Assembly (NCBI GenBank): GCA_009914755.4
Contig: CP086569.2
Location: forward strand, 13,568,001 to 13,632,000
DNA length: 64,000 bases
From: the human T2T-CHM13v2.0 reference genome, Homo sapiens
Direction of reading: 5' to 3'
In this document: positions 41,501 through 49,820 of the stretch, in pieces
Numbering within the stretch: position 1 is the stretch's first letter
Layout: every line of letters starts with the position of its first letter
Notes under the pieces: model-generated
Told to the model about the DNA's origin: nothing
What the model saw: the letters and a program-made list of their open reading frames with translations, nothing else
The model's database searches: none
Made by a program: the position numbers and the translations under genes

Positions 41501-43343
41501 TGTTGAATAATTGAACTTTGTTTATTTCTCCATATTTTTGCAGTGGTAATTCCATTATAAAACCTAATGAAACAATGTTTTTATAGATGGTGTGGAAAGA
41601 CTTTTCTGGGCTCAGAGGTGAAACTGACCCTTGTGTATCAGCAGCATTTCTGACTGACTGAGAGAGTGTAGTGATTAACAGAGTTGTGATGTTAGTTAAG
41701 AAACTTAGATTTGCCATTGTAGCTTTTCTACCAATTAGCAGATTGTTTAACTCACTGAAATTGTAAAGTGGTAGACGTGGACTTAGTCATTACTGGGCAG
41801 CTTATGAATTGTATTCATTTACTCATGATGTAAAAATGGTTAGTCTCCACTTTTAAGGCTCTAGTTCTAGTGGCTAAATAGGTACTTATTTATACAGTAT
41901 GATAACTGCTGTATTAAAATACATGTCTCAAATGTGGAATAGTAGAAGAGGTGAAGAAAATCATAGTTTGAGGTAGAATACTGTTTGCTGGTCTTAAAAA
42001 CTGTGGTATTTTGGTGATTCCATAAATTAGGTCAGATACTTCCACTGGAGGGAAACAGTTTAAAGGATATATGTGATACTATTAATAGAATGAGGAAGAC
42101 ACACCAGATATTTAGGAGGGAATTAGCGAGCTTGAAACTAAGAGCTGGTTTGAATGAGACTGGGTCATAAGTGATTTCAAGTACCAGATTAAGGCACTGA
42201 GATTTTATTTTTAAGCACTGAAGTCAGATTTTTTCCTTTTAAAAGAAAGGATTCATGATGAAATCTGCTTTTTGTTTTGCAGAGAGCTTGGAGATAATTC
42301 TGGTGGCTGTGTGGAGTATGTGTTGGAGGTGAGTTGCTAGCTGAAGAATTAAAACAATAGTTTTAGCAGTTTGGGTAAGAGATGTTTACAGAAATGTTTT
42401 GTGGAATAAAACTGAACAGTCAGAGACCTATGAGATTACCATGGTCTGATAGAGGGGCAGCTAATACAATCTTTTCTTTTTTTGTCACTGAGTTAATTAC
42501 TAAGCTGGGGCAGGATATTTGTCTTTTACTTCATAAGAAAATAGCTCACAGTTTAACAGCTTAAAACAACAAACATATCTTTTCGTTTTTGTGGGTAGCA
42601 GTTATTTATCTGAAGGCTGGTATGTCCACTTCCACAATGGCTTACTCACATGATTGCTGACAGCAGGGCTGATTTCTTTGCTAGCAGTTGGCAAGAGGTA
42701 TGTCCTTGCTGTAAGGATATATCTGTAAGCCTGTTTCAGTGTTTGGGGCAAGCCTTGGCTATCAAGCTAAGGGTACCTATGTTGAGGCCTAGGGAATTAT
42801 CTATTGTAGCCTGCTTGGGAAAAATATTATGAGAAATTTTTGTTGTTCTGATTTGAACAGTAGAAGTGTGTAGTACTTGAGGTTCCTTGAGGGTATATTT
42901 AATATGGATTTTTCTGTCTGCAAAACAATATTGTGGAGATAGTGTTGAATCTGTAAATCACTTTGGGTAGTACTGATAACAGTAGTAAGTCTTGTAATAC
43001 CTGGACATTAGAGGTCTTTGCCTGTATTTCTGTCTTTAGTTATTTTTCCCTCCACAATAAATTTTTGTTTTTAGTATAAGTCATTGGTCTCCTTGATTAA
43101 ATTCTATAGATTTTTCTACATGTAATATCATGTCATCTCTGAATAGGCACAGTTTTACTCCCTTCTTTCTGATTTGGATGCCATTTTATATCTATCTCTT
43201 CTTTCTTTGCTCTGACTAGGACTCTCCATACTAAGTTGAATTAGAGGGGTCCTTGTCTTGTTCCAGATCTTAGAGAAAGGCTTTGCGCCTTTTCCCATTT
43301 GGTATGAAGTTAGGTCTTGCACTCCTCTTTGTCTTATATGACT

Positions 43344-43544
43344 TTTTTTTTTGACAGAGTCTTGCTCTGTCACCCAGGCTGGAGTGCAGTGGCGCAATCT
43401 TGGCCCACTGCAAGCTCTGCCTTCCAGGTTCACGCCATTATCCTGCCTCAGCCTCCTGAGGAGCTGGGACTACAGGCACCTGCCACCATGCTTGGCTAAT
43501 TTTTTAAATTTTTTTAATAGAGATGGGATTTTAACATGTGAGGT
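43344..43544 (-). mobile_element. 5'-truncated Alu, antisense, whose 5' junction carries a 29-bp inverted Alu segment (44405-44433); it is now separated from that segment by the LTR12 insertion
   Basis: Poly-T then 'gacagagtcttgctctgtcacccaggctggagtgcagtggcgcaatc...agagatgggattttaacatgtg'; the expected continuation appears inverted after the LTR. Confidence 0.75.
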
Positions 43545-44404
43545 TGTGTCCAGAATTTATTCCTTCTTGTGGGTTCTTGGTCTCGCTGACTTCAAGAAGG
43601 AAGCTGCGGACCCTCGCGGTGAGTGTTATAGCTCTTAAAGATGGTGTTCGGAGTTTGTTCCTTCAGATTTTCAGATGTGTCTGGAGTTTCTTCCTTCCAG
43701 TGGGTTCATGGTCTCTCTGACTTTAGGAGTTAAGCTGTAGGCCTTCGCAGTGAGCATTACAGCTCTTAAAGGTGGCGGGTCTGGAGTTGTTTATTCCTCC
43801 CAGTGGGTTCGTGGTCTCACTGACTTCAGGATGGAAGCCGCAGACCCTCATGGTGAGTGTTACAGCTTATAAAGGTAGTGTGGACCCAAAGAGTGAGTGG
43901 CAGCAAGATTTATTGTGAAGAGCGAAAGAACAAAGCTTCCACAGCATGAAAAGGGACCTGAGCAGGTTGCTGCTGCTGGCTGGGTGTAGCCAGCTTTTAT
44001 TCCCTTATTTGTCCCTGCCCATGTCCTGCTGATTGGTTCATTTTACGGAGTGCTGATTGATCCATTTGACAGAGTGCTGATTGGTCTGTTTACAATCCTT
44101 TAGCTAGATACAGAGCGCTGATTGGTGCGTTTTACAGAGTGCTCATTGGTGCGTTTACAATCCTCTAGCTAGACACAGAGCAGTGATTGGTATGTTTTTA
44201 CAGAGTGCTGATTGGTACATTTACAATCCTCTAGCAAGACACAGAGTGCTCATTGGTGCATTTTTATAGAGTGCTGATTGGTGCATTTACAATCCTTTAG
44301 CTAGACACAGAGTGCTGAATAGTGCATTTACAATCTTCTAGCTAGACAGAAAAGTTCTCCAAGTCCCCATTCGACCCAGGAAGTACAGCCGGCTTCACCT
44401 TTCA
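43545..44404 (+). mobile_element. Solo ERV-9 / LTR12-family LTR, sense orientation; about 8 U3 tandem repeats with ATTGG (CCAAT-box) motifs at 44010-44340; 4-bp TSD AGGT
   Basis: Starts 'tgtgtccagaatttattcc', with three 5' repeat units of about 100 bp. Characteristic repeats 'gagtgctgattggtgcatttacaatcctttagctagacacaga'. Ends '...gtccccattcgacccaggaagtacagccggcttcacctttca'. 'aggt' is present at both junctions. Confidence 0.75.
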
Positions 44405-44439
44405 AGGTCAGGAGCTCGAGACCATCCTGGCTATATGAC

Positions 44440-46440
44440 CTTTTTTTACGTTCTGTTTTGTTGAATGGTAATACAAGGTTGTTGAATTTAGTTAAATATT
44501 TTTTTCTACATCAAGATAAAGATCATGTGGTTTTTCTCCTTTTTTTGGTGATAGGGTATATTACATTGATTGGTATTCATGTATTGAACCAACTTTGCAT
44601 TGCAAAAATCCCATCTGATTATAATTTTTTCATGATACTGCTAAATTTGGTTTGCTAGTGTTTTGTTGAAGATTTTTGCATTTATATTTATCAGAAACAT
44701 TGGTCTGTAGTTTCTTTTTAGTAGAAAAGAAAGTGGAAAAGAAAACACTCACAGATTTAGTCTAAGAGGCCTGCATTACCTTTATTCCAAAGTCAATTTG
44801 TGAGTGTTTTCTTTATTTTTCAGGAAGACTTTCAGGATTTGTGATACGTATTCTTTAGATGTTTGTGTAATTCTTCAGTGAAGTCATGTGATCACAGACT
44901 TGTTGGTTGGAAAGTTTTTAATTAATGATTCAGCCTCCTTACTAGTTATAAATCTGTTCAGATTTTCTAATCCTTCATTATCTAGTCTTGGTACATTGTG
45001 TGTTTTTAGCAACTTACATTCATTTTTTGTAGCTTATCTAATTTAATGACATATAGTTGTTCAAAGTATTTTCTTAGACTCTTTTTTTCTGTTTGCATTG
45101 GTTGTATATCCCTTCTTTCAGCCTTGGTTTTAGTTATTTGAGGTTTTATTTTTTCCTCTTTATGTAAGTAGTGGTGTCAGTTGTGTTTATCTTTCAAACA
45201 GCCTCCTTTTGATTTGGTTGATCTTTTTTTTCTATTCTGTATTTTATTTATCTCTGCTATGATCTTTCTTCAGTTAGCTTCAGGTTTAGTTCTTTTTCTC
45301 CCTTAAGATTATAGTTGGGTTGTTAATTTCAGATTTAAGGCCAGCATTTTACAGGTATTAAACTTATAAACTTTAAAACTATGAACTTTTCCTCTAGCAT
45401 TGCTTTTGCTGTGTCCCATCAGTTTTGGTATGTTTTATTTTTAGTTTTTCTCGATATATTTTCTAATTGTCATTTTAATGTTTTCTGACCCATTGGCTCA
45501 GAATGTTTTGTTAAATTTTCACACATTTGTGGATTTCCAGTTTTCTTTCTGCTGTTGATTCTATTTTCATCCCATTGTTTTCTGAAAAGATACCTTATGT
45601 TGTTTCTGTTATTTTAATCTTATTAATACTTGATTTGATATGAGGTTTGTCTTGGGGAATGTGCCATATACACTTGAAAAGAATGTGTACTCTACTGTTG
45701 TTGGGTTAGTGTTCAGCATATGTCTAATTGTTTTATTGTTGAAATCCTCTATTTCCTTGTTGATTTTTTTTTTTTGTCTGGTTGGGTAGAAAGTGAGTTA
45801 GGGAAATTTTGTACTATTATTTTGTTGCTATCTATTTTTTCCTTTAATCTGTTAATATTGCTTTATATATTTTAGAGCTCTGCTTTTTGTTGCATATTTA
45901 CAGTTTTTTACCTTCCTAATGAATTACCTTTTTATGATTGTGTCTTTCCCTGTCTCTTGTGGAATTTTTTTATTTAGTCTATTTTGTGTGATATTAATAT
46001 AACAAACTCTGCTCTCATGTGGTTATTATATGCATGAAATATCCTTCTCCATTTTTTCACTTTGAAGCTATGGTTATTCTTTGATCACATAGTCTACTGT
46101 AGGACTCTTGTGAGTCTCTTATAGGGAAGGATAAGGTTGAACTTGCTTTTTTATCCTTGCAGCTCATCTATGTGTTTGATTGGAGAATCCATTTACACTT
46201 AAAGTATTTACTGAAAGGAAAGTATTAACTATTGTCAGTTAGTTACTTTTGCCTCGTATTTCTTGTGGATTTTTGCTTATTTTCTCTTTTACTGCCTTTT
46301 GTGTTTTGTTTATTTATTTTTTGGTAGCGATAAGTAGTTTCATTCTGTTTTCATTTTCATTGGTATATATTCTGTATTTTGTTTCTGGTTATAACTGCAA
46401 TAGGATCTTGTGACCTGTAGAGAGTTTACATAGTAAATTG
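44440..46440 (-). mobile_element. L1 (LINE-1) fragment, antisense, ORF2 5'-half region
   Basis: Matches to reverse-complement L1 ORF2 such as 'gatttttgcatttatatttatcagaaacattggtctgtagtttc', 'gaatgtgccatatacacttgaaaagaatgtgtactctactgttgttggg', and 'ctgttaatattgctttatatattttag'. Confidence 0.7.
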
Positions 46441-49503: not shown

Positions 49504-49724
49504 CTCTTACTGGTCTTTTTAATATGTAAGACAGTGGTACCTTTTTTCCTTTTAGGTTATGAAATGGTCTCTGCAAGATGTTTTGTCCTTGAATTGGAAA
49601 TTTTTAAGGCTGATATATGCTGGTACTTCATCTTCTATATGTGGACTATAATTTCTTCCCTTAGGATAACTACATAAAGAGACAAAAAAAAGAAAAAAGA
49701 GCAAAGATCTGTGCTGTGTCAAGT

Positions 49725-49820
49725 ATGACAGCCATCACTCATGGCTCTCCAGTAGGAGGGAACGACAGCCAGGGCCAGGTTCTTGATGGCCAGTCTCAGC
49801 ATCTCTTCCAACAGAACCAG
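49725..49820 (+). CDS. USP9Y: USP9Y start-codon exon, coding part (exon spans 49665-49820; 49665-49724 is 5'UTR after acceptor 'tcttcccttag|gataac')
   Basis: ATG at 49725 in Kozak context (A at -3). 32 codons [32 protein letters not shown], then donor 'cag|gtaggagt' at 49820|49821. Matches the recalled USP9Y N-terminus; USP9X reads [32 protein letters not shown]. Confidence 0.85.

What the first reader, a model, noticed from the sequence alone, without database searches (positions are those of the whole stretch)
43344..44440. Sense-oriented solo ERV-9/LTR12 LTR with about 8 CCAAT-box U3 repeats inside the USP9Y intron, inserted at a twin-priming-type Alu inversion junction
45 bp (43500-43544) is counted once although two intervals overlap it (the same 45 bp are also counted in the 43344-43544 interval). 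Region 43545-44404 has the hallmark ERV-9 LTR architecture. It has 5' repeats of about 100 bp ('tgggttc.tggtctc.ctgacttca...gcggaccctcgcggtgagtgtta'), then about 8 tandem units of about 40 bp of 'gagtgctgattggtgcatttacaatcctttagctagacacaga', each carrying ATTGG (NF-Y/CCAAT), and it ends '...ccaagtccccattcgacccagg...cacctttca' with a 4-bp TSD AGGT. ERV-9/LTR12 LTRs are well-documented germline/testis-active promoters and enhancers and are reactivated by HDAC inhibitors. This one is in the same orientation as USP9Y, about 5.3 kb upstream of the start-codon exon. It could therefore drive an alternative first exon or act as an enhancer for this spermatogenesis gene. The target was a 5'-truncated antisense Alu whose break carries a 29-bp inverted Alu piece (44405-44433 'aggtcaggagctcgagaccatcctggcta' is the inverted continuation of '...catgtg'), i.e. 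a twin-priming signature.
Basis: partly seen in the sequence, partly recalled or inferred. Interest (0 to 1): 0.55.

Follow-up and report, generated by a model that had tools for sequence, protein, structure and literature searches.

The report
Antisense solo LTR12 in USP9Y intron

Summary
The element at 43545-44404 is a real 860-bp solo ERV-9/LTR12 LTR. It has exact TG...CA ends and a 4-bp duplication (AGGT) on each side. It is nested in a 5'-inverted AluY, which is itself nested in an old L1.

The orientation is wrong. Two proviral ERV-9 contigs from metagenome assemblies contaminated with human DNA settle it. The end at 44404 is the U3 start, which follows env and the polypurine tract. The end at 43545 is the U5 end, which precedes the primer-binding site and gag. 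The LTR therefore reads U3-R-U5 on the minus strand. All eight CCAAT boxes, the AATAAAAG box and all four AATAAA motifs are on that strand.

The USP9-type exons (ATG at 49725) are on the plus strand, so the LTR is antisense to the gene. Its promoter fires away from the ATG exon.

The copy is among the more diverged of 55 compared, with low CpG content and a decayed GC box. Most likely it is an inert relic. An antisense transcript or an orientation-independent enhancer effect cannot be excluded. Ordinary; low interest.

The parts
43545..44404 (-). Solo ERV-9/LTR12 LTR, 860 bp. It reads U3-R-U5 on the minus strand, with sense start TGAAAGGTGAAGCC at 44404 and sense end ...TTCTGGACACA at 43545.
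   Evidence: blastn to 120 LTR12-bearing contigs gives 70-87% identity. The ends align to the PPT|TGAGAGGTGAAGCC and ...GGACACA|TTTTGGCG(PBS) junctions of proviral contigs. Provirus genes were confirmed by Pfam.
44045..44347 (-). U3 enhancer repeats: five 41-bp and four 24-25-bp units in alternation. Seven of the nine keep an intact CCAAT. One GATA-type motif, TCTGTATCTAGCT, has its TATC core at minus-strand position 44110.
   Evidence: Unit table; TRF periods 24/41/66; motif scan; motif text from PMC11853044.
43985..44044 (-). Proximal promoter: the last CCAAT box, a decayed GC box (GGGCAGGGA where the majority consensus of other copies has GGGTGGGGC) and the AATAAAAG TATA-like box at 44001-43994. 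The inferred TSS lies about 25-30 nt further on the minus strand (~43970).
   Evidence: Sequence; alignment to 54 other copies. The TSS position is inferred, not measured.
43909..43914 (-). AATAAA polyadenylation signal in R, in the context CACAATAAATCTTGCTGCC. It is one of four AATAAA on the minus strand; the plus strand has none.
43569..43867 (-). Three U5 repeat cores (B-type) at 43867-43803, 43764-43700 and 43633-43569.
   Evidence: TRF period 103. U5 B elements are described in PMC11853044.
43541..43544 (.). Left copy of the 4-bp target-site duplication of the LTR (AGGT on +, ACCT on -).
   Evidence: Two other solo copies also have 4-bp TSDs (L053 ATAT, L024 CTAT).
44405..44408 (.). Right copy of the 4-bp target-site duplication of the LTR.
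43343..43540 (-). AluY-type element, 3' part (consensus ~97/103 to 279) plus the A-tail, seen as a T-run at 43343-43352.
   Evidence: Rfam Metazoa_SRP hit on the minus strand. blastn to AluY gives 86.6% identity over 103-279.
44405..44433 (+). Inverted 5' piece of the same Alu (AluY positions 66-94, 27/29). Before the LTR arrived it was joined to ...AACATGTG at 43540.
43335..43350 (.). Left target-site duplication of the Alu composite: TATATGAC, extendable to TATATGACTTTTTTTT.
44432..44447 (.). Right target-site duplication of the Alu composite: TATATGAC, extendable to TATATGACCTTTTTTT (15/16 against the left copy). It overlaps the Alu piece by 2 nt (TA).
43178..43334 (-). Old L1, ORF2 reverse-transcriptase region. 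This is the left flank of the composite insertion.
   Evidence: The flanks joined over one TSD copy align without a break to human L1 ORF2p residues 529-692 (E=3e-16).
44448..44724 (-). The same L1, right flank.
49665..49820 (+). ATG exon of the USP9-type gene (ATG at 49725, 32 codons [12 protein letters not shown]...QQNQ). The acceptor is ...cccttag| and the donor is |gtaggag.
   Evidence: Together with the next two exons it hits proteins named FAF-X / USP9.

Best explanation
43545-44404 is a solo LTR of the ERV-9 (LTR12) endogenous retrovirus, lying on the minus strand and therefore antisense to the USP9-type gene on the plus strand.

History, read from the nesting:
1. An old L1 on the minus strand was already in the intron.
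2. An AluY-type RNA was inserted by L1 machinery in a twin-priming event. This left its 3' part plus a 31-bp inverted 5' piece between 8-16-bp target duplications.
3. An ERV-9 provirus then integrated 2-3 bp from the inversion junction and made a 4-bp duplication.
4. Recombination between the two LTRs left one LTR.

The LTR's regulatory signals all read on the minus strand: CCAAT/NF-Y repeats, a GC box, an AATAAAAG box, a polyadenylation signal and U5 repeats. Any transcription it starts would run leftward, away from the ATG exon at 49665. It cannot give a sense-strand alternative first exon.

On the gene's strand it contributes no AATAAA, which fits a tolerated intronic insertion. The copy is CpG-poor and among the more diverged members of the family. 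Its most likely present role is none.

Shown here: identity, boundaries, orientation and nesting order. Inferred: the TSS position and the lack of function.
For: Family and boundaries:
- 120 contigs share the repeat. blastn gives 70-87% identity, and several hits cover the full length.
- The window's two ends align base for base to ...GGGGGGAT|TGAGAGGTGAAGCC (after env and the PPT) and ...TTC(C/T)GGACACA|TTTTGGCG (before the PBS) in proviral contigs.

Orientation:
- In L030 the LTR, taken in the window's minus-strand orientation, is followed on the same strand by Gag_MA, RVP+RVT_1, RNase H and rve ORFs.
- In L048 the U5 end abuts gag, and the U3 start follows a TLV_coat env ORF.
- The published layout is U3 with ~41-nt CCAAT/GATA repeats, R, then U5 with 72-bp repeats. 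The sense-strand motif TCTGTATCTAGCT from that paper is found on the minus strand here (PMC11853044).
- The minus strand carries 8 of 8 CCAAT and 4 of 4 AATAAA.

Gene strand:
- Three exons with splice sites and an open frame lie on the + strand.
- They hit USP9X-type proteins at 86% identity.

Nesting:
- Alu segments and strands.
- Alu TSDs.
- L1 ORF2p continuity across one TSD copy.

Decay:
- CpG observed/expected is 0.36.
- The core region is 87.4% identical to the family majority consensus, rank 49 of 55.
- The GC box reads GGGCAGGGA.

Context from the literature:
- Intronic ERVs and LTRs are generally biased to the antisense orientation (PMC1794541).
Against: - No expression, chromatin or comparative data could be examined, so 'inert' is an inference.
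- Eight intact CCAAT boxes and the AATAAAAG box survive, so residual NF-Y binding or antisense promoter activity is possible.
- ERV9 shows the weakest antisense bias of the ERV families studied (PMC1794541), so orientation alone says little about selection here.
- The subfamily was not assigned because no Repbase or Dfam library was available.
- The Y (rather than X) identity of the gene rests on my memory of the USP9Y N-terminus plus its 14% divergence from X-type database proteins.
- No upstream exon was located in the window, so 'inside an intron' is not directly shown.
Confidence: 0.88

Rival explanations
1. One reading: the LTR is in the same orientation as USP9Y and acts as a germline or HDAC-inhibitor-inducible alternative promoter, whose transcript splices into the ATG exon at 49665.
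For: LTR12 elements do serve as alternative promoters of many genes, including in the male germ line (PMC11853044). The element is 5.3 kb upstream of the ATG exon and keeps 8 CCAAT boxes.
Against: The orientation was tested and the model fails. U3-R-U5 reads on the minus strand. The TATA-like box and polyA signal are on the minus strand, while the gene is on the plus strand.
Confidence: 0.02
2. Antisense promoter: in testis or under epigenetic de-repression, the LTR starts a non-coding transcript on the minus strand that runs leftward through the AluY and L1. This transcript might interfere with USP9Y transcription.
For: An ordered set of promoter elements survives on the minus strand: CCAAT boxes, AATAAAAG and R/U5. 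LTR12 cryptic TSSs are activated by DNMT and HDAC inhibitors (PMC11853044).
Against: The GC box is decayed, CpG is low, and the copy ranks 49th of 55 in identity to consensus. No GGTGAGT or GGTAAGT donor motif lies on the minus strand within the LTR. There are no expression data.
Confidence: 0.08
3. Orientation-independent enhancer or open-chromatin element: NF-Y (with GATA or MZF1) binds the U3 repeats and modulates USP9Y or a neighbouring gene.
For: There are 8 intact CCAAT boxes in ACCAATCAG-type contexts and one GATA-type motif. LTR12 U3 repeats recruit NF-Y, MZF1 and GATA-2 at other loci (PMC11853044).
Against: The described ERV-9 LTR enhancer mechanism acts on downstream, cis-linked genes through transcription from R-U5 (PMC5416847). 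Here that direction leads away from the coding exons. Most of the ~5,000 LTR12 copies have no known function.
Confidence: 0.07
4. Cryptic exon source: on the gene's strand, the antisense Alu supplies a T-run and AG acceptors (43343-43380), and the antisense U5 repeats supply two GGTGAGT donors (43618 and 43852). This could add a non-coding exon to the USP9Y 5'UTR.
For: Donor motifs are present. Simulations predicted strong exonization from antisense solitary LTR12C (PMC1794541).
Against: The same paper found no annotated human mRNA splicing events that involve antisense HERV9. Splice-site strength was not scored here.
Confidence: 0.03

Closest known systems
ERV-9 / LTR12 solitary LTRs (class I, gammaretrovirus-like HERV9), as reviewed in PMC11853044
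   Same: - TG...CA ends and a 4-bp TSD.
- U3 with tandem ~41-nt CCAAT/GATA repeats.
- A short R with AATAAA, and U5 with tandem repeats.
- 70-94% identity to LTRs that flank gag-pro-pol-env proviruses.
   Different: - It has no ~600-nt 5' extension, so it is not the typical LTR12C/D/E form.
- The U3 units alternate between 41-bp and 24-25-bp forms.
- It is CpG-decayed and lies antisense to its host gene.
LTR12-driven alternative promoters (e.g. the TP63 germline isoform, GBP2/5, DHRS2, listed in PMC11853044 Table 1)
   Same: Same repeat family, with CCAAT-rich U3, located upstream of a coding exon of a testis-relevant gene.
   Different: This LTR points away from the exon it would have to feed. 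No transcript evidence was available here.
5'-inverted (twin-primed) L1-mediated insertions (Ostertag and Kazazian model; Kojima 2010, PMC2912911)
   Same: - The A-tailed 3' segment and an inverted, adjacent 5' segment lie within a single TSD pair.
- 2-nt microhomology (TA) at the 5' junction.
- A T-rich nick site (TTTTTTT|A) if the 16-bp TSD reading is right.
   Different: The element is an Alu. 5' inversion is rare for Alu: one case was found in a survey in which full-length Alus alone numbered 4,472. The inverted piece is only ~31 bp, and an LTR later landed 2-3 bp from the junction.

Membership tests
ERV-9 / LTR12 LTR | Sequence homology to the LTRs that flank ERV-9 proviruses | tested here: met
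   blastn gives 70-87% identity over long stretches. The first 147-230 nt are 90-94% identical to the 3' LTRs of proviral contigs L048, L036 and L109. Provirus genes were confirmed by Pfam.
ERV-9 / LTR12 LTR | LTR termini TG...CA that coincide with the PPT and PBS junctions of proviruses | tested here: met
   window 44404 aligns to the PPT|TGAGAGG junction, and window 43545 aligns to the GGACACA|TTTTGGCG junction.
ERV-9 / LTR12 LTR | 4-bp target-site duplication (class I ERV) | tested here: met
   ACCT/ACCT on the sense strand. Solo copies L053 and L024 also have 4-bp TSDs.
ERV-9 / LTR12 LTR | U3 with 5-17 tandem ~41-nt repeats carrying CCAAT and GATA motifs | tested here: met
   There are 9 units plus a proximal box, 8 intact CCAAT, and one TCTGTATCTAGCT motif, all on the minus strand. 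The feature definition comes from PMC11853044.
ERV-9 / LTR12 LTR | U5 with tandem repeats (72-bp B elements) located 3' of R | tested here: met
   Three 65-nt cores are spaced 103 and 131 nt apart, downstream of the AATAAA signal on the minus strand.
ERV-9 / LTR12 LTR | Subfamily call (LTR12, LTR12_, B, C, D, E or F) | not testable with these tools
   No Repbase or Dfam consensus library was available. The 860-bp length and the absence of the ~600-nt 5' extension argue against typical LTR12C/D/E.
Solo LTR (as opposed to a provirus end) | Host sequence and matching TSDs directly on both sides, with no internal ERV sequence | tested here: met
   Both flanks are Alu sequence with AGGT on each side.
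LTR-derived alternative promoter of the host gene | LTR in the same transcriptional orientation as the gene | tested here: not met
   The LTR sense strand is minus. The exons are on the plus strand.
LTR-derived alternative promoter of the host gene | Transcripts that start in the LTR and splice to a gene exon | not testable with these tools
   No RNA data were available. The only paper in the library holding both USP9Y and LTR12 mentions them in unrelated contexts.
Twin-primed (5'-inverted) L1-mediated insertion | One TSD pair encloses the whole composite, and the host sequence is continuous when the composite is removed | tested here: met
   TATATGAC lies at 43335-43342 and 44432-44439, extendable to 15/16 over 16 bp. 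The joined flanks give unbroken L1 ORF2p residues 529-692.
Twin-primed (5'-inverted) L1-mediated insertion | The inverted segment comes from the part of the same RNA just 5' of the non-inverted segment, with its 3'-most base next to the TSD | tested here: met
   The inverted piece is AluY 66-94 (64-94 if the preceding TG is included), with position 94 next to the TSD. The non-inverted part covers ~97/103 to 279. Both are Y-type at the diagnostic sites I checked by eye (consensus from memory).
Twin-primed (5'-inverted) L1-mediated insertion | A-tail at the 3' end and a T-rich endonuclease nick site | tested here: inconclusive
   A T10 run is present. However, it merges with the T-rich target, so tail length and the exact nick position (TTTTTTT|A versus GAC|C) are ambiguous.
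USP9Y (versus USP9X) | N-terminal exons of USP9 type, diverged from the X copy | tested here: inconclusive
   Hits are named FAF-X and USP9/24. The best are X-type (MTATTRGS...) at 86% identity. The Y assignment rests on my memory of the USP9Y N-terminus (MTAITHGS...).

The most novel reading that the evidence does not exclude
Although backwards, the LTR may still matter. In male germ cells its eight NF-Y sites could keep the intron open. It could then act as an enhancer or start an antisense RNA that tunes USP9Y. Alternatively, the USP9Y pre-mRNA could carry antisense U3 repeats that act as an NF-Y-binding decoy RNA of the kind described for intronic LTR12 (PMC11853044). A smaller curiosity is that the host Alu is a rare 5'-inverted Alu.
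Probability: 0.07. Interest if true: 0.35.

Novelty: already known. Interest (0 to 1): 0.1.

Why it matters
It matters mainly as a correction. The repeat order was read from the plus strand and taken as U3 followed by U5, which gave the wrong orientation and hence a wrong functional hypothesis for a spermatogenesis gene.

The element is one of thousands of LTR12 copies. Nothing seen here sets it apart beyond its tidy three-level nesting and the rare inverted Alu.

If strand-specific testis data showed antisense initiation here, it would be a minor addition to the list of LTR12-derived transcripts.

Tried and rejected
- Searching the paper library for LTR12 k-mers, to find primers of known strand, gave only unrelated hits on the 11-mers and none on the long k-mers.
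- Rfam returned only Alu-derived sub-threshold hits (SRP, mir-1268, mir-3135) plus weak chance hits. Nothing was specific to the LTR.
- A CpG-island scan of the whole window found none at GC > 0.55 and o/e > 0.6. The USP9Y promoter could therefore not be placed, and the upstream exon of the intron was not located.
- My first translation of the flanks on the plus strand showed no L1 ORF2. The L1 is on the minus strand.
- A regex for LTR ends also matched internal U5 repeats, so only copies with distinct host flanks were used for TSD checks.
- I considered a block inversion of an LTR already sitting in a full-length antisense Alu. I rejected it because it needs three precise breakpoints, one of them exactly at the Alu's TSD. 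Twin priming needs only one coincidence: integration 2-3 bp from the junction.
- A DYZ19-type LTR12B-derived satellite was rejected, because this is a single copy with its own TSDs.
Full report
**What is in the sequence**

Positions 43545-44404 form an 860-bp block that starts TGTGTCC and ends CCTTTCA. AGGT lies directly on each side, at 43541-43544 and 44405-44408.

On the plus strand the block opens with three copies of a repeat. TRF reports a period of 103 for 43686-43876, and the repeat cores lie at 43569-43633, 43700-43764 and 43803-43867.

It closes with an array of ATTGG-bearing units (TRF periods 24, 41 and 66 in 44027-44348). There are exactly eight ATTGG and no CCAAT on the plus strand. 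The window-wide density of both motifs together is 1.45 per kb.

The units are not eight units of ~40 bp. There are five 41-bp units and four 24-25-bp units in alternation, plus a promoter-proximal box. Two of the units have a mutated CCAAT.

**Family and boundaries**

Several carry human skin, gut or oral metagenome labels, so they are contaminating human DNA.

blastn of the element against these contigs gave 70-87% identity, and several matches covered the full length.

Some of the contigs are pieces of proviruses. Their ORFs match Gag_MA, RVP, RVT_1, RNase H, rve, MLVIN_C and TLV_coat, which is the gammaretrovirus-like gene set expected of ERV-9.

In these proviruses the LTR begins right after a polypurine tract (...TTTAGAGGGGGGAT|TGAGAGGTGAAGCC). 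It ends right before a TGG-type primer-binding site (...AATTCTGGACACA|TTTTGGCG...). The window's two ends align to these junctions base for base.

The boundaries 43545 and 44404 and the 4-bp duplication are therefore correct. Two other solo copies also have 4-bp duplications. Both flanks are Alu sequence, so this is a solo LTR.

**Orientation: the main correction**

In contig L030, the LTR taken in the window's minus-strand orientation is followed on the same strand by gag, protease-RT, RNase H and integrase.

In contig L048, the end that corresponds to window 43545 abuts gag. The end that corresponds to window 44404 follows env.

So 44404 is the U3 start, 43545 is the U5 end, and the LTR reads U3-R-U5 on the minus strand.

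The published layout agrees. It places U3 with 5-17 repeats of ~41 nt (CCAAT, GATA motif TCTGTATCTAGCT) first, then a short R, then U5 with 72-bp repeats (PMC11853044). The quoted GATA motif is found on the minus strand here.

The sequence itself agrees as well. All eight CCAAT, an AATAAAAG box at 44001-43994 and all four AATAAA motifs are on the minus strand. One of these AATAAA, at 43914-43909, sits in the expected R context. The plus strand has none.

**The gene**

On the plus strand, an exon at 49665-49820 has a 3' splice site, an ATG at 49725, 32 codons and a GT donor. Two further coding exons follow near 60.9 kb and 62.4 kb.

The joined 109-residue peptide hits proteins named FAF-X or USP9. 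The best hits are X-type (MTATTRGS...) at 86% identity.

This fits a diverged Y paralogue. The N-terminus MTAITHGS... matches USP9Y as I remember it, and that last step is from memory.

The LTR is 5,261 bp upstream of this exon and antisense to it. I did not find the upstream exon or a CpG island in the window, so "inside the intron" is likely but not shown here.

**The nesting**

A minus-strand Alu lies at 43353-43539. The evidence is an Rfam SRP hit and 86.6% identity to AluY positions 103-279. It has a T-run at 43343-43352.

After the LTR, 44405-44433 is Alu positions 66-94 on the opposite strand, matching 27 of 29 bases.

It also matched several dozen other Alus in the window, mostly at 72-92% identity, so it is serviceable.

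With the LTR and one AGGT removed, the sequence reads ...AACATG|TGAGGTCAGGAGCTCGAGACCATCCTGGCTA, followed by TATATGAC. The same TATATGAC precedes the T-run (43335-43342 and 44432-44439). The match extends to 15 of 16 bases if the T-rich stretch is included.

When everything between the two copies is removed, the flanks translate on the minus strand into an unbroken stretch of L1 ORF2p, residues 529-692 (E = 3e-16).

So the composite entered an old L1 as one event. Its layout is the one the twin-priming model predicts: TSD, then the complement of positions 94 down to 64, then positions ~97 to 279, then the A-tail, then TSD (PMC2912911).

That paper found only one 5'-inverted Alu, in a survey in which full-length Alus alone numbered 4,472. 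This is therefore a rare form.

I weighed a block-inversion alternative and rejected it because it needs three precise breakpoints.

The ERV-9 integration site is 2-3 bp from the inversion junction. I treat that as coincidence.

**What it does**

The LTR's promoter faces leftward, away from the ATG exon, so it cannot produce a sense alternative first exon.

On the gene's strand it adds no polyadenylation signal. It does add two GGTGAGT donor-like motifs, at 43618 and 43852.

Antisense solitary LTR12 was predicted to exonize strongly, but no annotated splicing events with antisense HERV9 were found (PMC1794541).

The copy is decayed:
- CpG observed/expected is 0.36.
- The GC box reads GGGCAGGGA.
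- The core region is 87.4% identical to the majority consensus of 54 other copies, rank 49 of 55.

My best reading is an inert relic. An antisense transcript, an orientation-independent NF-Y enhancer effect or a cryptic exon remain as low-probability rivals that need RNA and chromatin data.

**Subfamily and novelty**

No Repbase or Dfam library was available, so no subfamily call is made.

The element starts directly with TGAAAGGTGAAGCC after the duplication and is 860 bp long. It therefore lacks the ~600-nt 5' extension typical of many LTR12C/D/E copies.

This is a known repeat family in a well-studied gene region. The only paper in the library that holds both USP9Y and LTR12 mentions them in unrelated contexts.

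The finding is ordinary. Its value is the corrected orientation.

Noticed in passing
L112 5952-6066 (metagenome contig OLNQ01003862.1): About 115 bp of LTR12 U3 repeats (ATTGG units) sits inside a 1,914-codon bacterial-looking ORF, just before dockerin-like repeats, with bacterial-type sequence on both sides. It is probably an assembly chimera with human reads. Contig L026 likewise joins GC-rich bacterial-like ORFs to an LTR12 at its end.
   Followed up: partly
window 43343-43380 and 43618, 43852 (+ strand): On the gene's strand, the antisense Alu gives a T10 run followed by AG acceptor-like sites. The antisense U5 repeats give two perfect GTGAGT donor motifs. Together these could make a ~260-nt cryptic exon. 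No transcript data were available to test this.
   Followed up: partly
window 43178-43334 and 44448-44724 (- strand): The host of the composite insertion is an old L1 on the minus strand. It is interrupted in the reverse-transcriptase part of ORF2 (residues ~529-692) and carries several stop codons.
   Followed up: yes
window 43371-43498: Sub-threshold Rfam hits to mir-1268 (46 bits against a gathering score of 83) and mir-3135 (35.5 against 80) fall inside the Alu. They reflect the Alu origin of those miRNA families, not miRNA genes here.
   Followed up: no
window, whole: Several dozen Alu copies lie on both strands in 64 kb. No 500-bp window reaches GC > 0.55 with CpG o/e > 0.6, so the gene's CpG-island promoter does not seem to lie in the window.
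   Followed up: no
L030 776-820; L090 and L048 (equivalent positions after the 5' LTR): The proviral contigs show TGG-type primer-binding sites right after the 5' LTR. L030 carries two in tandem (TGGCGCCCAACGTGGGGC and TGGCGACCCAGATGGGAC). The tRNA match was not checked.
   Followed up: no
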